From: Mobula hypostoma
Lineage: Eukaryota
Direction: 5' to 3'
DNA length: 64,000 bases
NCBI RefSeq assembly: GCF_963921235.1
Contig: NC_086097.1
Coordinates: 89,716,001-89,780,000, forward strand
Within the stretch, counting starts at the first letter, position 1; every line of letters begins with the position of its first letter. Below are positions 1-60,138 of the stretch, one piece after another. A program made the position numbers and the translations under genes. Below the pieces are notes generated by a model. The model saw only the letters and a program-made list of their open reading frames with translations, made no database searches and was not told the origin of the DNA.

Positions 1-1364
1 GATGCTTTGGACATTGACAACATCTTTCAAATTGATGAGACAGCTTTTACATTGGACGCTCTAATGACAAAATTTGAGGAGTATTTTGTCCTAAGTAAAA
101 ACATCACGTTTGAGAGATGTAAGTTTTTTTCCTGTGATCAGAAACAAGGTGTTAGCCTTTACCAATACTTAGCTGAACTTCTCACACTGAGTAAGTCCTG
201 TGAGTTTGGAGATTTGAGAGATTCACTAGTTAGGGACGAAATAGTTTGTGGAGCTTTAAATAATGGGTTCAGAGAAAGATTATTCTGGGGAAAAGATTCA
301 ATGTTGGAAAGGGCTATGGATATGTGTAGGGCAGCATAGATCACACAATCACAGGCTAAGGAGCTGCACAGGGCTGAAACAACAGTACATGCTGTGAAAA
401 CAGAGGGGCAGAGCACAAGGCGTTTCCCAAAGCAACAACAAAGAAAAGAGGAAGGCTCAAACAGTAAATGTAGCGAATGTAGAAGTAGGCACATCCTAAA
501 GGTGTGTGTTGCTTATGGAAAGTCCTGCAACAATTGTGGAAAGAAGAATCATTTTGCAAAGTGCTGCAAAGCTGGGGCTACCAAGCAAAAGGTGCATATG
601 GTTGCTGAGGAAATGAAGGAAGTCTTTATAGACAGACTGCTGATGCTGGTAAGATGGAACGGATTTTTCCAATGACTGTGAATGAGACAGTAATTCCATT
701 TCAATTTGACGCCGGAGTCCAGGTGAATCTGTTGTCTATGGATGATTACAAAATGCACAAGATTTACCCAGTGAAGGTAAAAGCTATATTGGAGGGAACA
801 TTCCAGTTAAAGGGGGCTGTTTAGTGACCTTCAAGCACAAGGGACAGCACCTAAAAGCACAGTTACTGATTGTTGAAAAGCGAGTATGGCCAATACTAGG
901 TCTGAGTGAATGTGAAAAGCTCAACCTAGTGAAAAGAGTTTTCATCGTGGCTTCACAGACCTAAGATGGCCACACTTGATTTATGGAAGAATACACAGAT
1001 CTCTTTGAGGCGTTCAGATGCTTACCTGGTGTACACAAAATGCATATCGATGAGACAGTGACTCCTGTTGTCCGTGCTTGCAGAAAAGTTCTGTTTGCAT
1101 TTAGAGACAAACTTAAGCAAGAACTGACACCCATGGAATGGGTAAATGTCATCCAGAAAACAGCAAACTGAGTGAACTCACTGCTCATTTGTGCAAAAGA
1201 AAAATGGAGCATTACGGATATGTCTAGACACAAGAGATCTCAATAAAGCCATCAAGAGAGAGCATTCTAAATTGCCAGCAAGGGAGGAGATCATGTCCTG
1301 GTTTGCAGGTGCCAAGTGATTTAGCAAACTCGACGCATCATCTAGGTTTTGGCAGATGAAGTTT

Positions 1365-2327: not shown

Positions 2328-3499
2328 GTTTGATGAGGCAAGTTCAAGATTGTGTACTTTTAACACACCAGAGGGAAGATGTAGCTTTCTTCGATTACCA
2401 AATGGGACCCTGTCTGCACCAGGAGTCTACATTAAAACCATCCACATGATCTTTGAGGGCATACCTAGTGTCAAGACAATGATGATGACATTATTGTTTT
2501 GGGGTCCCTCAGGAAAGAACATGATGCATGACTGAGACAGGTGCTTGAAGTGACATGGAATGTCAATTTGAAATTAAATAAAGAGAAATGTAAGTTTGGT
2601 GTTAATTTACTGACTTACATAGGAGAGGGAGTGAAGCCTGACCCAAGAATGATGTCAACCATTGAAAACGTGGAGAGGCCCCAACACAAATAGGGGTGAA
2701 ATATTTCCCGGGGATGGTCTCTTACCCAGCTAAGTTCATCCCTCGATTGTCTTCTGTGTCAGCACACAGTGAAATGAGTGGATTTGGTCTCATGAGCAAG
2801 AAATCTATTTCCAGAGGCTGAAAGAGTCCTAACCGAACAGCCCATGTTGACATTTTATGATCCAGAAAGGTGCACTAGGATCTCGGCTAATATGTCCTGA
2901 TGTGGTCTTGGAGCAGTACTCCCACAGCAGCATGATGACACGTGGCAAACTGTGGCCTGTGCACTAAGGGCTTTAACAAGTGCGGAAGCCAACTATGCAC
3001 AGATAGAGAGAGAGCTTCTAGCCAGCACAAATACATGCAAAAGGTTCCATCAGTACATCTACGGACAAGCTTTTGAAGTGAGACAGACTGCAGAGCACAG
3101 GTCTCAATTATGTCCAAGCCACTGAATGACTCTCCCATGACGATACAGCGCATGTTGATAAGGCTGCAGAAATATGATCTACACACCAAGAAAGTATATG
3201 TTTGCTGCTAGTGGATTGTCTCAAGCTGTCAACAGGAAAGAAAACAGTGACCAAGGAATTAGTGTTGATCTACAGACCTACGTTGACATGATTGTCACAT
3301 CCATTCCGGTATCTCCCGATGGAACAGAAAAGATTAGGACAGCAGCAGGGACCGATGAAACAATGTAAGTACTCTAAGTGACAATACAAAAAGGATGGCC
3401 AGCAACTAACAAATGATTGTCCAATGTGCTTTCAGGATTATTGGGCATGTAGAGCTGAACTGTCAATAGTGGAAGATATGGTCTTGAAAGGAAAAAGAT

Positions 3500-3605
3500 T
3501 TGTGAAGGTTCTCGGCCCGAAACATCGACTGTACTTTTTTCCACAGATGCTCCCTGACCTGCTGAGTTCCTCCAGCATTTTATGTGTGTGGCTTGGATTT
3601 CCATT
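3500..3605 (+). mobile_element. Penelope-type 3' terminal fragment nested in Gypsy
   Basis: GGCCCGAAACATCGACTG...GATGCT.CCTGACCTGCTGAGTTCCTCCAGCATTTT motif shared with the Penelope end at 32426-32520. Confidence 0.75.
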
Positions 3606-4599
3606 TTGTCTTGTTTGTGATTCCAGTGTCACTACACAAGGAAATGCACCAGAAGATACATGAAGGGCACCTTGGCGAGGAAAAACGTAAACAAAGAGCT
3701 CCTGAAGTGATGCACTGGCCAAGAATGAGCCAAGACATCACCCAGACCATTGCTTCATGTGGAATATGCCTAACCTATAGACCAAAGCAGTAAGGAGAAC
3801 TGTTTAGACCACACCCTGTACCAGTCAGGCCATACTTCGAGGTTGGACTGCATTAGTTTGATTATAATGGAAAGAGTCACATTGTTGTAACAGACTACTT
3901 TTCCAATTACCCAGAGGTTGCAACACTGCAATCAACATCCAGCAAAGTGCCACCACCTTCCTGCAAGCTGTGTTTGTGAGGCATGGAGTTCCATGTGAAG
4001 TGGTATCAGACAATGATCCATAATTTTTAGTCTGTGAATTTGAGTCCTTTGCCAATAATTGTCAAATTGGCTACAGAGAAAGGGAAGGAAGAACAGAAAC
4101 AGTATCACAACAAGACTGAAAAAAGTCTACCAGTCCCGAAACCTGGAGATCATGTGCAAATTGGGATCACAATTCCGGCACATAGTCTGTGTAAGAATAT
4201 GTACAAGAGGAAGTTGCTCCACATTCCTACCAGATCCCGATGGAGCAAGGAACACTTCTAAGAAGGAACTGTGTGTATCTATGACCACGTGTTCCAACCC
4301 ATAACTGTGACTCATCACCTGTCAGTACACCAAATGGGCCAGCAAATGCAAAAAAATAAGCTTGTTGTCCAGAGTTCTCAGAAAGACACTAATATTAGCA
4401 CAGCAAGTGAAAGCAATACATCGGTAGAGATGAATAGCAGACCAAATAAGGACCATCAAACCATCTCAGAGACTGATTGAGAGTCGCTAAGTGAATAAGG
4501 GACTGTATATAAGAAGAAGAAGTGAATTTTATGTAAATATCTCTGTCAGAAAGCATTTTATTGTTTCTTGCAGGTTTAAGAGAACATAGTGTTGTGTTT

Positions 4600-38954: not shown

Positions 38955-40330
38955 GGGGGTCAGACAGGCGATTCTGTGGATGCAGGAAAGAAACACGGAT
39001 GGTAGTTTGCCTCCCAGGTGCCAGGGTCCTGGGTGTTTCTGAACACGTCGGGAAAGATCCTGAGAGACAGGATTCATGAACATTTGGAGAAGCATAATAT
39101 GATTAGGAATAGTCAGCAGGTCATGCGTTATGAGCCTGATTGAATTTTTTGAGGATATGACTAAACACATTGATGAAGGTAGAGCAGTAGATGTAGTGCA
39201 TATGGATTTCAGCAAGGGTACCCCATGCAAGGTTTATTGAGAAAGTAAGGAGGCATGGGGATCCAAGGGCACATTGCTTCGTGAATCCAAAATTGGCTTG
39301 CCCACAGAAGGCAAAGAGTGGTTGTAGACAGGTCATATTCTGCATGGAGGCCGGTCACAAGTGGTGTGCCTCAGGGTTCTGTTCTGGGCCCCCTATTTTT
39401 CGTGATTTTTATAAATGATCTGGATGAGGAAGTGGAGGGATGGGTTAGTAAATTTGCTGATGACACAAATGTTAGGGGTGTTGTGGATAGTGTGGAGGGC
39501 TGTGAGAGGTTACAGCAGGACATCGATAGGATGCAAAACTGGGCTGAGAAATGGCAGATGGAGTTCAACCCAGATAAGTGTGAGGTGGTTCATTAATATA
39601 GCATTAATGGTAAGACTCTTGGCAGCATGGAGGATCAGAGGGATCTTGGGGTCCGAGTCCATAGGACACTCAAAGCTGCTGCGCAGCGTGACTCTGTGGT
39701 TACGAAAGCATACGGTGTGTTAGCCTTCATCAACTGCGGGATTGAGTTTAAGAGCAGAGCGGTAATGTTACAGCATCAAACCCCACTTGGAGTACTGTGC
39801 TCAGTTCTGGTCACCTCACTACAGGAAGGATGTGGAAACTACAGAAAAGGTGCAGAGGAGATTTACAAGGATGTTGCCTGGATTGGAAGCATGCCTTATG
39901 AGAATAGATTATGTGAACTCGGTCTTTTCTCCTTGGAGCGACGGAGGCTGAGAAGTGACCTGATAGAGGTGTGTAAGGTGATGAGAGACATTGATCATGT
40001 GGATAGTCAGAGGCTTTTTCCCAGGGCTGAAATGGCTAACATTAGAGGGCACAGTTTTAAGGTGCTGGGGAGTAGGTACAGAGGAGATGTCAGGGGTAAG
40101 TTTTTTACGCAGAGAATGGTGAGTGCGTGGAATGGGCTGCCAGCGATGGTGGTGGAGGCGGATCTGATAAAGTCTTTTAAGAGACTCCTGGATAGGTACA
40201 TAGAGCTTAGAAAAATAGAGGGCTATGGGTAACCCTAGGTAATTTCTAAACTAAGTACATGTTCGGTACAGCATTGTGGGCCAAAGGGCCTATATTGTGC
40301 TGTAGGTTTTCTATGTTTTCTATGTTTCTT
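38955..40330 (+). mobile_element. CR1 LINE: short ORF1 esterase fragment joined to the ORF2 RT/3' end
   Basis: GSDRRFCGCRKETRMVVCLPGARV, then SGVPQGSVLGPLFFVIFINDLDE..SKFADDT; tail TTCTATGTTT. Confidence 0.93.
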
Positions 40331-48149: not shown

Positions 48150-48460
48150 GTCAATGATCACGCTATCAGGTTGTTGACTACCAGGCAAATATGAGGTGCT
48201 CACACGAGGAAATCTGCAGATGCTGGAATTTCAAGCAACACACATAAAAGTTGCTGGTAAATCAGCAGGCCAGGCAGCATCTCTAGGAAGAGGTACAGTC
48301 GACGTCTCGGCCCGAAACGTCGACTGTACCTCTTCCTAGAGATGGTGCCTTGCCTGCTGCGTTCACCAGCAACTTTTAAGTATGAGGTGCTATTCATCTA
48401 GTTTGCATTTGGCCTCATCCTGGCATTGGTTGATGCCAAGGACAGTCAGTTTGGTCTATG
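48150..48460 (-). mobile_element. Older Penelope endonuclease C-terminal relic
   Basis: Minus LTVLGINQCQDEAKCKLDE*HLI..GSQQPD, homologous to 32029-32163. Confidence 0.7.
48201..48380. mobile_element. Palindromic Penelope mini-element
   Basis: Inverted arms around ~48310; 11-bp TSD TATGAGGTGCT (48190-48200, 48381-48391). Confidence 0.88.
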
Positions 48461-49048: not shown

Positions 49049-49696
49049 TAGATTAGATTATGAGGACACGCAGTCCTCTTTTATCGTCATTTAGTAATGC
49101 ATGCATTAAGAAATGATACAATGTTTTTCCAGAATGATATCACGGAAACCGATGACAAACCGACTTACAAAAACTAACAAAAACCACATAATTATAACAT
49201 ATAGTTACAACAGCGCAAAAAAATACCGTAATTTGATAAGAACGGACCATGGCACGGTAAAAGTCTCAAAGTCTCTCAAAAGTCCCATCATCTCACGCAG
49301 ATGGTAAATCTCCAGCGCCGCCAACTTGCTGATGCAGCATAATGGAAGCATCCGACCATAGTCCGATTCCGAGTCCGTCCGAAAACTCCGAGCCTCTGAC
49401 CAGCTCTCCAACACTGAGCACCAAGCACCATCTCTGCCGAATGCCTCGAGCCTGGCCCCAGCAACAGGCAATAGGCAAGGCCGAGGATTTGGGGCCTTCC
49501 CTCCGGAGATTCTCGATCACACAGTAGCAGCGGCAGTGAAGCAGGCATTTCAGAAGTTACTCCAGGTGTTCCTCCGTGCTTCTTCACATCTGTCTCCATC
49601 AAATCTGGATTGTGCATGGCCCCCTAGTTAACACATAATTGATATTCATTCGGAACAGCCGCGCACGCTGTGTGGCGCCGCCATCTTCTCCTCCCT
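49049..49696 (-). mobile_element. Non-coding retroposed family copy ((TAATC)n tail, AAGATGGCGGC start)
   Basis: High similarity to 59441-60138 and 23325-23850. Confidence 0.88.
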
Positions 49697-49914
49697 AGGT
49701 TTAAGACCTTTAGAGGGGATCCCAATGAAGGAATCTTGAATGAGGGAATAGAATTACGATTATGGGGCATTTAAGTTTGAGGTGTGTAGGAGAGGGTGGT
49801 GGAACTCTGAAATGATCTACACCAGAATGTGACAGAAGCTGGATCACTGACAATATTTAAAGAAAAGGAAAGTATGTGTTGGAAGGTCAGGGATTTAGCA
49901 CAGCAGAGAAGAAA

Positions 49915-51225
49915 AGAAAAAAACGGATGGTAGTTTGTCTCCCAGGTGTCAGGGTCAGAGATGTTTCTGGACATGTTCACGATATCCTGAAAAGGGAAGG
50001 TGAGCAGCCAGAGGTTGTGGTACATATTGGTACCAATGACACAGGAAGAAAAAGGGAGGCGGTCTTGAAAACAGAATACAGGGAGTTAGGAAGGAAGCTG
50101 AGAAGCAGGACCTCAAAGGTAGTAGTCTCGGGCTTTTTCTGCTTGGCTGCCAGTGACTAGTGATGTTCCTCAAGGGTCAGTATTGAGACCACTACTTTTC
50201 ACATTGTTAGTTAATGTTTTGATCTTTGGTGGCTTTGCGGATGATACGAAGATAGGCGGAGGCGTAAGTAGAGCTGAGGAAGCAATGCAATTGCAGCAGG
50301 ACTTAGACCTAGACGCATAGAAAACCTAGAGCACAATACATGCCCTTTGGCCCACAATGCTGCACTGAACATGACAAAATGGAAGAATGGACAAAAAGTG
50401 GCAGATGGAATATTGTGTTGGGAAATGTATGATAATGCATTTTGGTAAAAGGAACAATAGTGCAGACTATTATCTAAATGGGGAGAAGGTTCAAACATCA
50501 GAGATGCAAAAGAACTTAGAAGTCCTTGTCCAAGACTCCCAGGAGGTTAATTTACAGGTTGAGTCTGTGGTAAAGAAGGCAAATGCAATGTTGGCATTTA
50601 TTTCAAGGGGAATAGAATATAAAAGCAAGGAGATAATGCTGAGCCTATATAAGACACTGGTCAGGCTGCACGGAGTATTGTCAACAGTTTTGGGCCCCAT
50701 ATCTCAGAAAGGATGTGTTGTCATTGGAGAGAGTGCAGAGGAGGTTCATGAGGATGATTCCAGGAATGAAGGGGTTAACATAAGAGGAGCATTTGACAGC
50801 TTTGGGCCTGTACTCACTGGAATTTAGAAGAATTTGGGGGGAATCTCATTGAAACCTACCGAATGTTGAAAGGACTAGATAGGGTGGATGTGGAGAGGGT
50901 ATTTCCAATGGTGGAGGTATCCAGAACTAGAGGGCACACCCTCAAAATTGGGGGGGCAATCTTTTAGAACAGAGGTCAGGAGGAATTTAGCCAGAGAGTA
51001 GTAAATCTGTGTTCTGCTCTACCACAAACTGCGGTGGAGGCCAAGTCTGTGGGTATGTTTAAGATGAAAGTTGATAGTTTCCTGATTGGTCAGGGCATCG
51101 GAGGATATGACAAGAAGGCAGGTGTATGGGATTGAGTGGGATCTGGGATCAGCCATGATGGAATGGCGAAGCAGACTCGATGGGCTGAATGGCCTAATTC
51201 TGCTCCTATTGTCACATGGTCTTAT
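49915..51225 (+). mobile_element. CR1 LINE: ORF1 SGNH-esterase fragment (49915-50135) joined to the ORF2 3' part
   Basis: MVVCLPGVRVRDVS...VVVHIGTND; then SDVPQGSVLRP, FADDTK, KANAMLAFISRGIEYK. Confidence 0.92.
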
Positions 51226-52089: not shown

Positions 52090-53140
52090 CTCCCTCCCTC
52101 ACACTCCTCCACTCCACCTCATATTCCTCCATTTCACATTCCCTCCTTCACATTCCTCCCATCTTTCTTCCTTCTTTCATGCTCCTTACACTCACCCTCT
52201 GGTCCTCACACTCCCTTCCTCTTTCCCTCCAGCCTCTCTCCTGCATATTCCTCAGCTCCACCCTTTCACCCTCACATCTTCCCTTCTTTCTTTTATCCTC
52301 TCTCCCTCATTCCCTTACATTCTTCCCCTCCACCCTCCATCACTCAAGCCTTTCCTGTTTCCCTCCATCCTCTCTCCCTTCCTCCCTCCCTTCCTCCCTT
52401 CTTCTCTCTCTCAGACTCTTTTTTTTCCACCCTCTCTCCCTTATAACCACCTTCCCTCTCCATTTAGCCATATAACCATATAACAATTACAGCACGGAAA
52501 CAGGCCATCTCGACCCTTCTAGTCCGTGCTGAACTCTTACTCTCACCTAGTCCCACCGACCTGCACTCAGCCCATAACCCTCCATTCCTTTCCTGTCCAT
52601 ATATCTATCCAATTTAACTTTAAATGACAACATCAAACCTGCCTCAACCACTTCTGCTGGAAGCTCGTTCCACACAGCTACCACTCTCTGAGTAAAGAAG
52701 TTCCCCCTCATGTTACCCCTAAACTTTTGTCCTTTAACTCTCAACTCACGTCCTCTTGTTTGAATCTGCCTCACTCTCAATGGAAAAAGTCTATCCACAT
52801 CAACTCTATCTATCCCCCTCATAATTTTAAATACCTCTATCAAGTCCCCCCTCAACCTTCTACGCTCCAAAGAATAAAGACTCAACTTGTTCAACCTTTC
52901 TCTGTAACTTAGCTGATGAAACCCAGGTAACATTCTAGTAAATCTTCTCTGTACTCTCTCTATTTTGTTGACATCTTTCCTATAGTTTGGTGACCAAACC
53001 TGTACACAATACTTCAAATCTGGCCTCACCAATGCCTTGTACAATCTCATCTCCTTGCATCTTTCTCTCTCTCTCCTTCCCTTCCCTCCCTCACTCTGCC
53101 CTTCCTTCCACCCTCCCTCCTACTCCCACACTCTCCTTCA
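52090..53140. repeat. Polypyrimidine low-complexity tract split by a CR1 insertion
   Basis: CT-rich 52090-52465 and 53045-53140. Confidence 0.85.
52465..53044 (-). mobile_element. Young CR1 3' end with an uninterrupted ORF2 C-terminus
   Basis: LYKALVRPDLKYCVQVWSPNYRKD...GNFFTQRVVAVWNELP...GRWD*; CCATATAA tail repeats. Confidence 0.95.
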
Positions 53141-53827
53141 CACTTACATTGTGCTTGTCAAACGTCTTCACCTCCACTGTGGCACTGTATGTATGTGAAC
53201 TGGCTTCAGGAGCTTTGGTTACAGCCATGAAATACAACACTTCTGTGAGAATGCAAGACGATGGGAATACAACTGTGGGAGCATGAAAGTTAGATGCACA
53301 CACGGGTGGGGCCCGTGAAGAATGGAGACAAGTGATGATTGGTTCTGCTTCGGTGGTTTGAGCTGGTGCTCTGTATTCATCCACCTATTGTAACATTTCA
53401 TATCAGTGGAAGGGTATAAGAGTAGAGCAGTTGGGAAACTTGAGAGTAGATTTTCGGGGCTTTACCAAAGGGCTGTTTGCAAACAGTGCCGCCAATCGGT
53501 AGAATGTGAGGTGTGATGCAGCATGAGGGGCCCGCGCACACTAGGATAAGTATTTTAATGCTTGCTCCTTTCTGGCTTAATAAACAATTTTTTTTGTCAT
53601 TCTAAGTAAATAATTGGAGATTTGTCTTCCTGCTCAACAAAGCCGTATCTGCGAACCTTTTGACATGATGTAACATTTGGGGTAGTCAGCAAGAATATGG
53701 TGGGTGTGATAGGGAGCAAAAATGTTTAGAAGTCAGCGTAAGAAGGAAGACCCCCCCCCACCCCCCTGTGCAAAGATAACCAAGTACTGGGGTGGACTGA
53801 AACTTTGTGGGGTTTCGTAATTTGGCC

Positions 53828-54195
53828 TCGGAAAGGCAGCGTCCATTATTAAGGACCCCCAGCACCCAGGACATGCCCTTTTCTCATTGTTACCATCAGC
53901 TAGGAGATACAGAAACCTGAAGGCACACACTCAGTGATTCAGGAACAGCTTCTTTCCCTCTGCCATCCGATTCCTAAATGGACATTGAATCCGTGAACAC
54001 TACCGCACTTTTTAAATATATATTATTTCTGTTTTTGCACGATTTTTAATCTGTTCAATATACGTATACTGTAATTGATTTACTTATTTATTTAATTATT
54101 TTTTTCTTTTACATTATGGATTGCATTGAACTGCTGCTGCTAAGTTAACAAATTTCATGGCACATGCCGGTGATGATAAACCTGAACCTGATTCT
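53828..54195 (+). mobile_element. Rex1/Babar 3' end
   Basis: KAASIIKDPQHPGHALFSLLPS.RRYRNLK; matches 25820-26320. Confidence 0.9.
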
Positions 54196-54209
54196 GGTAG
54201 ACCATGGTG

Positions 54210-56695
54210 CACTGGTGGATTGAATGGACAAGCTGGACCACCCCCCACCCCCCTGCACCACTGAGGAGTCAAGATAGGTCAATGGCTTGTGTCTGTAGGA
54301 AAGGGATTAAGGTTCTGAGGCATGAGGCCAGAGACAAGCTTTCTTGCTACTGGCGGCTACCATAAAACAACATGAGACAATCCCACGGGTCTTGCCATTG
54401 GGTCTTGCAGAGGTTGGAATGTGTAGGCGGAGCTCATAACCGAGTGAGGAAGATAGGAAAACAGAAGGGAGGGAGTAATCCATCTGACCTGTAAGGAAAT
54501 GCTATTGGCCCTGCTCAAGTCAGGTACCCTGAAGGAACAGGTGGACAGGATACCTACCCCTTACTGTATTTGCGTAGCAGAAAGACCATCGTCAAAACAA
54601 GAAGGAAGAGGAGTTGCAGCGGGCGGGCAGGAAGTCCAGCTGATTCTTCCTTATACCCCGCCCTTGAGGCTTTGCACAAAGCCCTTAGAAACCTGCCTCA
54701 GCAGGTCTCTAGCAGCAGTTGGCCCCTCCCACCTGCCCTCATAGAGGTGTGGCCAGGACTCCCGGCATATATTCTCAACGACCCTCTCCCAGCTCGGAGA
54801 CCCGAGACCTTACGTACTGACTGTGACGCCAAGCACACTGACTCTGACAGGTGGGAGGGAACCCGGGTGATGACAGGAGGAACAGGCGGGTCACTCACCT
54901 TGGCCCAGCTGGTTACTCAAGGGTGGCTATTGGCTGAGAACAATAGTCAGTGCTGGTCACAGCATCCCCTGGGGACGCTCTGCCTATCAATGTCCCTGCA
55001 GACCAATAGGGGCCATTTTACTTTTGGGGTGGTGGGACATCAAGCAGAACCAAGTTGGTGAACATCAAGCAGTACCACATCTCGGGTGGCACCAGGGAGA
55101 TCAGGAAACAGTGGAAACACTGTTGAAGGAGAGATTTTTCGGGCTGGCAACATCTTCCCTGCACCCCCCTCCCATTAATAGCCCAGTGCAGCCTGTGTGG
55201 AAGGGGATAGAGAATGGTAAATGACGATAGACTTTCGGCAAGTGAATAAGCACACACTACCCATTACAGCCGCTGTCCCAGATGTAGTGACCATTGTAGA
55301 GGACATAAAGGACAGGGAGTGGAAGCATTAATATCTGTAGTGGATTTGGCCAATGCTTTCTTTTCCATTCCCCTGGCCCTAAGACTGCATGCGTTACCTT
55401 TGGAATTACAGGTCTCTGCCACGTCTCCAGTGGCTGACCGGAGTCTGTGGCTGCGTATGAAAAGACATTGGGTCCCCTTGGGGTTTTGGATTGAGACCCT
55501 TCCTGAGGTTGCAATCAGATACACCCTCTTCTGAGAGACTGCTCTTCGCCTGTTAGTGGACTCTCTTCGTCACTGAGCGTCAGATAGGCTTGGAGACGGC
55601 CGACCTGTGACACCACCTACCCATTAGAAAATGGGTAAAATAAAGAAGGCCGAGCTCAGAGCTCTTCTGTAGATACAAGTTGCCTAATGTGCCAGCAGGT
55701 GAAGCCAAGGGGATGCTGGTGGGCTCCTGGGGACAAATCTGGAGAGGCACAGGGCAAGATTATGCCAAGTGGACAGCATGACCTACAGGTCAGGGAGGGT
55801 CCCTGAATTCCCAACATTTGGCAGTTTTTAACTCCTCCTCCAAAAAAGCAGAGGAGGTGGAATTGGAAGGCAGTCAAAGAAGGTATGGGTACCACAACCA
55901 ACTGGGCTGCCAGAGAGGGGGAAGATTGTAGCACAGGGACTGGTCAATATGAGGTGGGTGGTGCTTTCAGAAGAATAGGGACTAGTGTGTCTGAATGTCC
56001 AATGACTAAATAAAAGACAGAGATGGTGTGCTTCTTTACACTGCAGAAATGACCCCAACATTGCTGCAGCTGCCCACCAGAACAGCCATGGAGATCCGTA
56101 AGGCACCATCAACCAATGTCTCCGAATGTCATACGAATATGCTTGTCATCCGAACATATCAGTGTCGGATTCAAACGCACTCAGGCATGGGAGCATGGGT
56201 CCCTGTCCCTCTGGATGACACAGAATACTGGGCATGGAATGAATCTGCCATGAACCTGTCACCTCAGACTGTTGGTGGGGCTGGAACAGGGAGCCCGTTA
56301 AAGGGATGGTGTGTCAGGATATTATCAGAGTCAGACCCAAGTGTCAACATTGAATCTAATGCAGTGATCCAGCTATAATTGCCATTGCCATGATGATGAA
56401 CAGTTTCTGATGGTGAGTAGCTCGTTAACCTCTATGCACCTGAAGGTATGAAGCTCTGCAGTGCTACTACTGTGGGAACATGCTGTTTGATTGCCATGTT
56501 GAATGGCACATACCGGGTATGTGGCTCCTGGGGCTGCCCCTGCCTTCCCACCGGCTGTTCTGGCTGCTGCTGCCTGGGGTATGTCGTGCTGTATGTGTCT
56601 GATGTTGACGATCTGGCTGACCACCCGACACACAAGTCGAAACATCAGAAAAGGGGTATCCCAGGGGCCGATCGGTTCTGGATGATTTGCTTTTC
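54210..56695 (+). mobile_element. Decayed endogenous retrovirus: class III (ERV-L-like) pol remnants plus env remnant
   Basis: VNIKQYHISGG (~55060), NSPVQPVWK, TIDFRQVNKHTLPITAAVPDVVTIVEDI, VVDLANAFFSIPL, LELQVSA..ADRSLW..WVPLGFW; env NGTYRVCG..CLPTGCSGCCCLGYVV...HQKR/GIPGADRFWMI. The 5' boundary is uncertain. Confidence 0.82.
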
Positions 56696-56830
56696 TCCTG
56701 ATGAAAGGTCTCAACTCGAAATGTCATCTGTTTATTGCCCTCCATACATGCTGCCTGACTTGCTGAGTTCCTCCAACATTTTGTGTATGTTGCTCATGAT
56801 TTCCAGCTTCTGCAGAATCTCTCATGTTTG
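56695..56830 (+). mobile_element. Penelope terminal fragment at the point where the ERV env ends
   Basis: CCTGATGAAAGGTCTCAACTCGAAATGTC...ATGCTGCCTGACTTGCTGAGTTCCTCC. Confidence 0.8.
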
Positions 56831-56999
56831 TAAACTCCCTTATATTCCTTCTCCCTACTTCCATAACACTCTCCTTCTACCCCTTACACTTCTTCACTCT
56901 CCAGACTCTAACATTTTTTCTCATTTACTCTTTCCCTTCACTCACAGCCTTTCACCATCCCTCCCTCGCACACTCTCTCCCTCTTTCACTCATGGACTT

Positions 57000-57660
57000 C
57001 CTTAAGAATTTGCAGAGATTCATCACGACATCTAAAACTTCGACAAACTTCTATAGATGTGTAGTGAACAGTATACTGACTGGCTGCAGAACAACTTGAT
57101 ATGGAAACACCAATACTTTTGAATGGAAAATCCTACAAAACGTAGTGGATATGGTAGGTAAAGACATCGTAGGAAAAGCCCTCCAACCATTGAGCACATC
57201 TACATGAAACGCTGTGGCAGGAAAGCAGCATCCATCATCAGTGACCTCCACCATCTAGGACATGCTCTACCATCAGGAAGAAGGTAGAGGAGCCTCAGGA
57301 CTCACACCACCAGGTTCAGGAACAATTATTACCCCTCAACCATCAGTCTCTTGAACCAAGAGGATAACTTCTCTCAATATCACTTGCCCCATCACTGAAA
57401 TGTTCCTACAACCTATGGACTCACTGTCAAGGATTCTTCATTTCATGTTCTCGATATTCATTGTTTATTTGTTTATTATAATTATTTCTCCTTTTTGTAT
57501 TTGCTCAGTTTGTTGTCTTTTGCACTCTGATTGAATGCCCTAGTTGGGCAAACTTTCATCAATTCTGTTATGGTTATTTAGATTTGTTCAGAATTCCCGT
57601 AAGAAAATGAGTCTCATGGTTGTATATGGTGACATATATGTACTTTGAACTTTGAACTTC
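57000..57660 (+). mobile_element. Rex1/Babar 3' end with long 3' UTR
   Basis: FLKNLQRF..NFYRCVVNSILTGC, SGRR.RSLRTHTTRFRN.YYP; tail (ACTTTGA)n. Confidence 0.88.
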
Positions 57661-58674
57661 CCATCTCTCCCATACTTTCCCTCCTTCGTACTCTCTGTCC
57701 TTCTCTCCCTCACATTCCCTCTCTGACAGTTCATCCTTCCAGCAAAGTAATGAACAGAACAATTTAGCCCATTTTGTTTTTGCGCTGATTTAAGATGATC
57801 TGCTCAACCGAATCCAGCCTTCCAGCAGCCCGCAGGTCCACAGGACAGTATACTGTGTAACACTGCTGGTAGTAAGCTCCAGATCCCTACCACCCTCTGG
57901 ATATACTGCTATCCTTGCGCAATTCTTTTTTACAGTATTTATTGTTATATTCATTATTACAATGTATACTGTTTAGCTTCATGCAAGTGAAGTATTTCAT
58001 TGCACCCCGATGTATATCGTAATAAACTAATCTGAATCTGAAAAGTATTTCCTCATCTCTCTTCTAATTCTTCCGTCTATTGCTTTAAATCTCTGGCTCC
58101 TGGTATTGAAAATAAATAGGAAGGACCTACAAGGGTCCCAATATTTTCTATATGAAATTCACTTCTCCACTCAACTTTTCCAAAGGGAACAATCTCTACC
58201 TACCTAACCTTTCCTCATAGCTGCAGTATTCTTGTCCTAATTACATCCTCATAAATCTCCTCCAAAACTCTATCCAATACAGTCTCGTGTTTTCCTCTCA
58301 TGTCTTGAATAGAAGTGTATATTGTGCTTAAGCTGTAGCCTAGTTGATGTTGCATACAGTGCTAGCATAACCCCTCATATTCTATGATTAAAACAGAAAG
58401 TGCTGGAAGAACTCAGCCGTTAACTGTTCCACTTGCCACAGACACCATCTGACCTGCTGAGTGTTTCCAGCATTTTCTGTTTCAGATTCTCAGAATCTGC
58501 TGTCTTGTTTTGATTGCCTCACATGTTTCATGTCTTGAGTAATAAAGGAAAGAGTTTCATCTGTCATATCTGCCAGTCCTGCTACCTCTGCAGGTCTATG
58601 AACACATGCACCACACTGATCCTCTGAACCGCTCAAGGACATGGTATGTTCTCCTGCCTCATACTTCTCTAGAT

Positions 58675-59440: not shown

Positions 59441-60138
59441 AGATTAGATTAGGTTATTACATTATGAGGACATACAGTCCTCGTTTATTGTCATTTAGTA
59501 ATGCATGCATTAAGAAATGATACAATGTTCCTCCAGTATGATATCACAGAAACACAAGACAGACCAAGATTAAAAATATTGACAAAAACCACATAATTAT
59601 AACATATAGTTACAACAGTGCAAAGCAATACCGTAATTTGATGAAGAACAGACCATGGGCACGGTAAAAAAAAGTCTCAAAGTCTCTCGTAAGTCCCATC
59701 ATCTCACGCAGACAGTAGAAGGAAGAAAACTCTCCCTGCCATGAGCTTCCAGCGCTGCAAACTTGCCGATGCAGCATCCTGGAAGCACCCGACCACAGCC
59801 GACTCTTGAGTCCGTCTGAAAACTTCGAGCCTCTGACCAGCCCTCTGACACCGAGCACCGAGCACCATCTCTGCCGAGTGCTTCAACCCCGGCCCCGGCC
59901 GCCAAGCCACAGGCAAAGCCAAGGATTTGGGGCCTTCCCCTCCGGAGATTCTCAATCGCACAGTAGCAGCGGCAACGAAGCGGGCATTTCAGAAATTTCT
60001 CTACATGTTCCTCCATGCGTCTCACGTCTGTCTCCATCAAATCAGGATTGTGCATGGCATCCTACTTGACAAATACAGATATCATTCACCAGAGAGGCCG
60101 CGCGCGCTGCGTCGCGCCGCCATCTTCTCCTCTCCTCC
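59441..60138 (-). mobile_element. Apparently full-length copy of the ~690-bp non-coding retroposed family
   Basis: Minus start GGAGAGGAGAAGATGGCGGCGCGACG; AATAAA and (TAATC)n tail. Confidence 0.88.

What the first reader, a model, noticed from the sequence alone, without database searches (positions are those of the whole stretch)
54210..56695. Endogenous retrovirus with ERV-L/class III-type pol and gamma-type env in a probable cartilaginous fish
Seen: pol remnants KQYHISGG, PITAAVPDVV, DLANAFFSIP, LELQVS..DRSLW..PLGFW; env remnants YEYACHPNIS, WVPVPL, NGTYRVCG...LPTGCSGCCCLGYVV and a basic cleavage site HQKR followed by a hydrophobic peptide. Established: these pol motifs follow the ERV-L/class III pattern, mammalian ERV-L usually lacks env, and the env motif is gamma-type. 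Inference: a possibly little-described env-bearing class III lineage. The YXDD region, integrase, most of TM and the LTRs appear deleted.
Basis: partly seen in the sequence, partly recalled or inferred. Interest (0 to 1): 0.7.

Follow-up and report, generated by a model that had tools for sequence, protein, structure and literature searches.

The report
Ancient ERV-S-like retrovirus fossil in rays
This is one decayed copy of an old, multi-copy endogenous retrovirus, likely of a ray, that pairs an ERV-L/ERV-S-type polymerase with a gamma-type envelope, a combination already described in frogs and humans, so it mostly extends a known kind to a new host group.

Summary
In detail: 11 of 11 motifs are present. 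The element is larger than reported, with a 5' LTR at 53,149-53,675 and a tRNA-Ser primer site at 53,678. It is one dead, deleted copy of a family with dozens of dispersed copies about 26% apart.

In RT trees the family sits among ERV-L/ERV-S-like Pols, with a stingray Gag-Pol and two sister families from this genome. Grouping with gamma-like Pols is rejected. Sister copies link this pol to an env with SU CXXC, ISD and CX6CC; there is no dUTPase. That is the layout of HERV-S, and close to frog XtERV-S. Clade III is the majority ERV class in cartilaginous fish, so this is a new member of a known kind.

One extra: 16 of 40 copies share the same ~367-nt deletion of the integrase core between short repeats. 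This is likely a defective genome spread by helper virus, but a single origin is not shown. The same locus appears under two other species labels. No snakehead-retrovirus, foamy or epsilon sequence was in the trees. Earlier scan notes on shark ERVs concern other lineages.

The parts
53149..53675 (+). 5' LTR, about 500-540 nt in the family; the first ~15 nt are lost here; ends in ACA
   Evidence: Matches both LTRs of two-LTR copies (L033, L034, L036, L038, L050) at 66-79%; termini from an alignment of 15 LTRs
53678..53695 (+). Primer binding site complementary to the host tRNA-Ser(AGA) 3' end
   Evidence: 14 of 18 matches to a tRNA-Ser(AGA) gene from this genome, the single best of 63,982 + strand positions in the window
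53696..53800 (+). Leader remnant
   Evidence: Continues the match to sister copies to about 53,770-53,799
53826..54195 (+). Later insertion: 3' end of a host LINE (not part of the virus)
   Evidence: 84% to the 3' end of an RVT_1-encoding LINE in L057
54264..54744 (+). gag remnant, ending in TAG at 54,742-54,744 in frame with the start of pro
   Evidence: DNA matches to sister copies; tblastn to stingray Gag; TAG in 7 of 7 sister copies where the site aligned, of 44 examined
54745..55050 (+). Protease remnant; catalytic motif decayed here, DTG in sister copies L056 and L062
55051..55378 (+). RT N-terminal part (KQYHISGG, PITAAVPDVV, DLANAFFSIP), followed by a copy-specific deletion of ~545 nt that includes YXDD
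   Evidence: the same junction in 0 of 44 sister loci
55379..55672 (+). RT connection/tether domain (LELQVS, DRSLW, PLGFW), followed by a copy-specific ~680-nt deletion of RNase H and most of the IN zinc finger
   Evidence: the same junction in 0 of 44 sister loci
55690..55774 (+). IN remnant up to the first catalytic Asp codon; the hexamer at 55,769-55,774 is the junction of the family-shared ~367-nt IN-core deletion
55775..56020 (+). IN end and C-terminal domain; no room for a dUTPase
   Evidence: 38% to residues 1530-1577 of the stingray Gag-Pol; core-to-CTD spacing
56030..56654 (+). env SU remnant; the CXXC region is 13-14 nt shorter than in most sister copies; ends at a non-canonical basic site KHQKR (56,640-56,654)
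56655..56695 (+). First residues of TM; the element is cut off here
   Evidence: Matches to sister copies end at 56,684-56,700; TM coverage 0%
56696..56830 (.). Host repeat at the cut; 56,760-56,830 matches the end of a Penelope-like element (RT plus GIY-YIG) on the opposite strand
   Evidence: 78% to the end of the element in L032; many matches in other loci

Best explanation
It is a dead, heavily deleted provirus of an old multi-copy ERV-L/ERV-S-type (class III) retrovirus family with a gamma-type envelope, likely in a ray, and likely a neutral fossil today. Shown in sister copies: LTR - Ser PBS - gag ending in a TAG in frame with pro - PR-RT-tether-RNase H-IN with no dUTPase - short env with SU CXXC, a basic cleavage site, ISD, CX6CC and an anchor - LTR. 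Inferred from retrovirus biology: the ancestor was a simple infectious virus primed by tRNA-Ser that made Gag-Pol by stop-codon readthrough and entered cells with a disulfide-linked SU-TM Env. Inferred: it colonised the germ line in one burst (star phylogeny) tens of millions of years ago or more. Inferred, about 60%: a variant lacking the integrase core arose once by a template switch between two short direct repeats, and was integrated many times using integrase from intact siblings; the window copy is one of these. After insertion it lost RT core, RNase H, most of TM and the 3' LTR, and gained a LINE fragment.
For: Trees: family A including the window is one clade (UFBoot 100) and sister to family B (100). 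With family C and the stingray Gag-Pol it forms a clade at 99, and all ERV-L/S-like rows are split from the gamma-like and Gypsy-like rows at 100. The AU test rejects family A plus gamma-like, p=3e-5. A natural 454-aa RT ORF of family C scores 408-533 bits (44-56% identity) against the top 22 of 34 hits, which include a mouse-cluster Pol. It scores 110 bits against the best MLV-type and 92 against the best foamy-type PDB chains, and 15-30% identity to named exogenous retroviral Pols. Env: TLV_coat hit over the Pfam cut-off, best PDB hit syncytin-1, all three CX6CC cysteines in 5 of 7 family-A TMs found among 41 loci, SU CXXC clear in 5 of 8. Pol-env linkage in 21 of 46 loci. PBS-Ser. LTR pairs K2P 0.18-0.29 in 6 of 6 family-A pairs. 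Host: 7 of the 8 named top-10 Env relatives are from sharks and rays and the top Pol hit is a stingray. The same locus is held under two other species labels at about 2% and 7% difference. IN deletion: identical junction in 13 of 56 short loci and 16 of 40 long loci; the window's two other large deletions recur in 0 of 44.
Against: The trees held no snakehead retrovirus, XtERV-S, HERV-S, foamy or epsilon sequence, and the reference labels are partly recalled. Placement nearer ERV-L or ERV-S is unresolved (support 24-74 at the relevant nodes). No family-A copy shows an intact YIDD (8 copies with letters there). No target-site duplication could be read at the 2 family-A copies inspected. Deleted copies have 0 diagnostic columns of 2,147; within- and between-group distances are alike (0.267, 0.257, 0.262); and they do not form a clade in the free tree. 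Their monophyly is not rejected either (p=0.55), so a single origin is neither shown nor excluded. Copy samples came from similarity searches and are biased.
Confidence: 0.85

Rival explanations
1. Same virus family, but the integrase-core deletion arose many times independently, by template switching between the two ~10-nt direct repeats during reverse transcription. Virion integrase from an intact parent would then integrate each deleted genome, with no defective source element.
For: The repeats flank the deleted stretch in intact copies. Deleted and intact copies are intermixed with no diagnostic sites.
Against: The deletion is in 16 of 37 classifiable copies, which is very high for a 10-nt repeat (recalled: such short repeats delete rarely per cycle). 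A clonal burst would also leave no diagnostics, and monophyly is not rejected.
Confidence: 0.27
2. The shared deletion is host-made after insertion, by microhomology repair or by gene conversion spreading it among old copies.
For: One deleted/intact pair 540 kb apart is 86% identical from the junction to the 3' LTR, against 74% upstream, so conversion does occur in this family.
Against: Two other large deletions of the window recur in 0 of 44 loci. The junction is the same on at least 8 contigs. The deleted state is already present in a second species label.
Confidence: 0.1
3. The family belongs to the snakehead-retrovirus-related class III lineage already reported from elephant shark (CmiERV I), not to ERV-L/ERV-S.
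For: SnRV-like ERVs are known in cartilaginous fish (PMC4422223), and bioRxiv 2021.11.23.469661 labels its class III gamma-env ERVs 'SnRV-related'. No SnRV sequence was in my trees.
Against: A sister-family RT is 50% identical to the mouse ERV-L-type cluster. The stingray relative's Gag is annotated Fv1-like and has no CCHC knuckle; none was found in 45 family-A loci either. The Ser PBS and the in-frame gag stop match XtERV-S.
Confidence: 0.07
4. The pol and env pieces in the window are a chance juxtaposition or a local recombinant of two unrelated elements.
For: The genome has many other gamma-type env loci at about 40% identity.
Against: Pol and env are colinear between two LTRs in several copies and in 21 of 46 loci. 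Envs of families A, B and C group together (0.94 with one Hypanus Env), as their Pols do.
Confidence: 0.02

Closest known systems
HERV-S / ERV-S (and HERVL32, HERVL66), Vargiu et al. 2016, PMC4724089
   Same: Class III pol, no dUTPase, class I env. That paper relates the HERVS Env to PRIMA41/PABL, and the nearest named Envs here are annotated 'PABLB Env-like'. A Ser PBS for HERV-S is recalled.
   Different: Host is a cartilaginous fish. In my trees the ray clade does not group with the two rows I label ERV-S-like from recall (P0023, P0026).
XtERV-S of Xenopus tropicalis, Yedavalli et al. 2021, PMC8278194
   Same: LTR-gag-pro-pol-env, PBS for tRNA-Ser(AGA/TGA), TGT...ACA LTR ends, in-frame gag stop, YIDD-type RT, no Cys-His box, short Env with N-terminal CXXC, non-canonical basic-X-X-K-R cleavage site, ISD, CX6CC.
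   Different: XtERV-S is intact and recent, has a dUTPase after IN, a TGA gag stop and 705-bp LTRs. This family is old and dead, has no dUTPase, uses TAG and has ~500-540-nt LTRs.
Mammalian ERV-L (MuERV-L, HERV-L)
   Same: RT about 50% identical in a sister family; same motif pattern.
   Different: ERV-L has a dUTPase and no env (PMC8278194); a Leu PBS is recalled.
ERV-SA.a-Ppe, bioRxiv 2021.11.23.469661
   Same: Reported as class III Pol with class I gamma-type Env in a survey that included 6 cartilaginous fish.
   Different: The host is not spelled out in the main text and the supplements are closed. 'Ppe' may be a sawfish (my guess), so this lineage may already be catalogued there. Not compared.
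RefSeq-predicted Gag-Pol of the stingray Hemitrygon akajei (XP_072898008.1 and cluster)
   Same: Nearest protein relative; same domain order, no dUTPase.
   Different: A separate branch nearer family C; unannotated as an ERV; its env linkage was not tested.
Deleted ERV subfamilies spread in trans (HERV-H common deletions, IAP deleted types, ETn; recalled) and deleted XtERV-S copies
   Same: Many dispersed copies with one shared internal deletion.
   Different: Here only the IN catalytic core is removed, the two repeats lie in the same codon phase, env is kept, and no subfamily markers were found.

Membership tests
Class III ERV-L/ERV-S clade | RT groups with ERV-L/ERV-S, apart from class I and Gypsy | tested here: met
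   Split at UFBoot 100; AU p=3e-5 against grouping with gamma-like rows; reference labels partly recalled
Class III ERV-L/ERV-S clade | RT apart from foamy, epsilon and snakehead retroviruses | tested here: inconclusive
   By similarity only: 19-22% to human/equine foamy virus and WDSV, against 44-56% to ERV-L/S-like proteins; SnRV not named among the 50 rows shown; none in the tree
Class III ERV-L/ERV-S clade | YIDD catalytic motif | tested here: inconclusive
   Deleted in the window; decayed in 8 family-A copies (Ile at position 2 in 5); intact YIDD in 5 loci of families B and C
Class III ERV-L/ERV-S clade | Gag without a Cys-His box; gag and pro in one frame with a stop | tested here: met
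   No CCHC in 45 loci or the stingray protein (weak evidence in decayed copies); TAG in 7 of 7 aligned sisters
Class III ERV-L/ERV-S clade | 5-bp target-site duplication | tested here: inconclusive
   None readable at the 2 family-A two-LTR copies inspected; the window has no 3' LTR
ERV-L (strict) | dUTPase after integrase | tested here: not met
   IN core to CTD about 75 codons in an intact family-A copy and 74 in the stingray protein, against 202-208 in two dUTPase-bearing Pols; no dUTPase Pfam in P0035
ERV-L (strict) | No env | tested here: not met
   env linked in 21 of 46 loci
ERV-S type | tRNA-Ser primer binding site | tested here: met
   14 of 18 to host tRNA-Ser(AGA), best site in the window; 9-12 of 18 in 7 of 8 sisters, the eighth read one base out of register
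ERV-S type | Class I env and no dUTPase | tested here: met
ERV-S type | RT monophyletic with HERV-S or XtERV-S | tested here: inconclusive
   No named sequence available; the ray clade is its own branch and deeper nodes are weak
Gamma-type Env | SU CXXC, TM ISD and CX6CC | tested here: met
   In sister copies: CXXC clear in 5 of 8, three cysteines in 5 of 7; absent from the window copy by deletion
Gamma-type Env | Canonical furin site and actual SU-TM disulfide and fusion activity | not testable with these tools
   The site reads KHQKR, non-canonical like RNWKR of XtERV-S
Snakehead-retrovirus-related ERVs (CmiERV I) | Pol clusters with SnRV | not tested
   No SnRV or CmiERV sequence could be fetched

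The most novel reading that the evidence does not exclude
Rays carry their own deep clade of env-bearing ERV-L/ERV-S-type retroviruses: at least three families in this genome plus a stingray relative. It kept one PABL-like gamma envelope through repeated invasions, from very old (LTRs 18-29% apart) to recent (4%). This would support an enveloped ancestor for the whole ERV-L/S group, with env loss and dUTPase gain as later events. Within the oldest family, a single defective genome lacking only the integrase core spread in trans to about 40% of copies, a fossil defective retrovirus.
Probability: 0.4. Interest if true: 0.5.

Novelty: new member of a known kind. Interest (0 to 1): 0.3.

Why it matters
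The locus itself is a dead fossil. The family adds rays to the hosts of env-bearing ERV-L/ERV-S-type viruses, so far described mainly in mammals and frogs. That bears on whether this group was ancestrally enveloped or captured env repeatedly. Shared insertions across species give dating points. The shared integrase-core deletion is a testable case of an ancient defective genome riding on a helper.

Tried and rejected
- Pfam on 7 window ORFs and on 10 short sister ORFs gave nothing over the cut-off, because the pieces are too decayed.
- A homolog search with an 87-aa RT piece found nothing, and the viral-contig scan found no relative.
- The first full IQ-TREE run timed out. It was replaced by FastTree on all 54 rows and IQ-TREE on 24 of them. 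The supports printed after re-rooting were shifted, so I read them from the unrooted file.
- The Rfam tRNA search returned no Ser gene; a pattern search found it.
- An Rfam scan of 52,500-58,500 gave one chance hit and no hammerhead.
- Foldseek against BFVD gave only distant RTs, and the top hit was unnamed.
- No RNA holder was listed, which is no evidence on expression.
- I first read the IN-deleted copies as a distinct subfamily; searches did not support that.
- ARTenvV/CARenvV (PMC9604959) were rejected as close analogues because their RT is gamma-like.
- Pfam on 67 of the 79 other long window ORFs found no convincing host gene; the hits fit transposon fragments.
- Literature searches found no paper describing this family in rays. 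The library lacks most subscription papers, and Repbase/Dfam were not searchable.

Full report
Observation. All 11 motifs are in the + strand frames between 55,067 and 56,654, broken by stops and frameshifts. The window's HSPs sum to 261 bits against a predicted stingray Gag-Pol, 180-183 against mouse-cluster and killifish class III Pols, 26-50 against two gamma-like Pols and 0 against two Gypsy-like proteins. The gamma-like and Gypsy-like labels rest on Pfam content and recall.

Copies and anatomy. A DNA search of the own genome (3.48 Gb) gave 61 matches from 40 of 148 candidates scored; apart from the window itself, nearly all are 65-78% identical. In fetched loci, window 53,149-53,675 matches both ends of the internal region, so it is the 5' LTR. 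At 53,678 lies a primer site matching a tRNA-Ser(AGA) gene of this genome at 14 of 18, the best position in the window. A LINE 3' end is inserted at 53,826-54,195. gag ends in TAG at 54,742, present in 7 of 7 sisters where the site aligned (44 examined), in frame with the start of pro. The window lacks ~545 nt of RT core and ~680 nt of RNase H and IN zinc finger, and neither junction recurs in 44 sisters. The element ends at ~56,695, just inside TM, at a host repeat. Pol and env lie in order in 21 of 46 loci.

Pol. Three related families occur in this genome: A (the window), B and C. A natural 454-aa RT ORF of family C hit 34 proteins, led by stingray Hemitrygon (56%), amphibians, lungfish and a mouse cluster I label MuERV-L from recall (50%). 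PDB MLV-type and foamy-type RTs scored 110 and 92 bits; named exogenous retroviral Pols were 15-30% identical. In trees over 381 columns, of which the window row fills 138, family A is a clade at 100 and A+B at 100. A+B+C+stingray is at 99, and the split from gamma-like and Gypsy-like rows is at 100. Family A plus gamma-like is rejected (AU p=3e-5). The position relative to ERV-L or ERV-S is unresolved, and no foamy, epsilon or snakehead sequence was in the tree. There is no dUTPase.

Env. The window keeps SU and a few TM residues (E=1e-9 to a gamma-type Env). Sisters supply the rest: SU CXXC in 5 of 8, an ISD with all three CX6CC cysteines in 5 of 7, a TLV_coat hit and syncytin-1 as best PDB hit. 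Of the top 10 relatives of the family-C TM, 8 are named: 7 from sharks and rays, of which 5 are 'PABLB Env-like', and 1 from a teleost. Family A, B and C Envs group with a Hypanus Env (FastTree 0.94). The host is therefore inferred to be a ray.

Age. Six family-A LTR pairs differ by K2P 0.18-0.29, probably underestimates from local alignment; a family-B pair differs by 0.037. With the two rates quoted in PMC4422223 this gives 40-65 My at 2.2e-9 per site per year, or an implausible 400-650 My at 2.2e-10. So the age is tens of millions of years or more. Contigs of two other species labels hold this locus. One has 39 differences and 7 gaps over 55,065-56,700, spanning all three deletion junctions. 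The other differs by 6-8% and bridges the RT junction. The copy was already deleted before those species split.

Shared integrase deletion. The window and many sisters lack the same ~367 nt between two short direct repeats, in the codons for QVD and AVD, removing the rest of the catalytic core. Among 56 short loci (a few overlap the same provirus), 13 are deleted, 21 keep the core, 3 are partial, 12 unclear and 7 have no match. Among 40 long loci the counts are 16 deleted, 21 with core and 3 unclear. The samples are search-biased. Deleted copies show 0 diagnostic columns of 2,147 and equal distances within and between groups. They are scattered in the free tree, yet their monophyly is not rejected (p=0.55). 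I put a single defective source spread in trans at about 60%, recurrent template switching at about 27% and post-insertion events at about 10%.

Comparison with what is known.
- PMC8278194 (parts 1-4 of 8 read) describes XtERV-S with class III gag-pol, Ser PBS and class I env, and notes ERV-S has env and no dUTPase.
- PMC4724089 (passages) reports class I Env in HERVS, HERVL32 and HERVL66, and in every class III element where Env was found.
- bioRxiv 2024.07.05.601823 (passages) adds AnERV8.
- bioRxiv 2021.11.23.469661 (passages, sections 7 and 8; supplements closed) found gamma-type Env ERVs in 6 cartilaginous fish and names ERV-SA.a-Ppe as class III Pol with class I Env. Its supplements may already list this lineage.
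- PMC11089739 (passages) counts 2,843 clade III RT loci in 6 chondrichthyan genomes, the majority class.
- PMC4422223 (part 1 of 2) found SnRV-like and epsilon-like ERVs in elephant shark.
- PMC6001957, PMC9604959, PMC9967133 and PMC10536682 were seen as passages only.
My searches found no description of this family in rays.

Verdict. It is built like HERV-S and XtERV-S, fails strict ERV-L membership (env present, dUTPase absent), and its ERV-S membership by tree is open. Interest 0.3.

Noticed in passing
L036 4234-5739 vs L037 (G000:C5, about 540 kb apart, inverted): 86% identical from the IN-deletion junction to the 3' LTR, but 74% upstream; one copy is deleted and the other keeps the core. 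Likely ectopic gene conversion.
   Followed up: partly
L051, L052, L061, L068 (family B); L053, L058, L059, L060, L067, L069 (family C): Two younger related class III families in the same genome, also with gamma-type env where seen; one B pair of LTRs is 3.7% apart and has a different primer site.
   Followed up: partly
L059 oriented 2937-4148: The YIDD region of RT is repeated about six times in tandem; L064 shows a similar tandem expansion in the thumb region. Could be real or an assembly artefact.
   Followed up: no
P0035 (XP_072898008.1) and P0092 (XP_072897959.1): A stingray Gag-Pol and a stingray Env are predicted on contigs of the same length; several stingray Gag members are annotated Fv1-like. 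Linkage not tested.
   Followed up: no
L033 to L070 LTR 5' ends: The family LTR start resembles the XtERV-S LTR-end primer printed in PMC8278194 Table 1; possibly a class III integrase attachment motif or chance.
   Followed up: no
window 48263-48359: Near-perfect 48-nt inverted repeat with a 1-nt spacer, looking like two head-to-head repeat ends.
   Followed up: no
window 49052-49693 and 59456-60132: Two copies of a ~650-nt repeat, 82-92% alike in pieces, 10.4 kb apart on either side of the provirus.
   Followed up: no
window 1-336, 39285-39593, 49861-50157: Weak PNMA (gag-like) hit, an RVT_1 fragment and an esterase-like LINE ORF1 fragment; no convincing host exon among 67 ORFs scanned.
   Followed up: no
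G000 genome-wide: 150 of 150 scored candidates (of 1,070) match the TM query, most at about 40%, many on contig C99: other abundant gamma-env ERV families.
   Followed up: no
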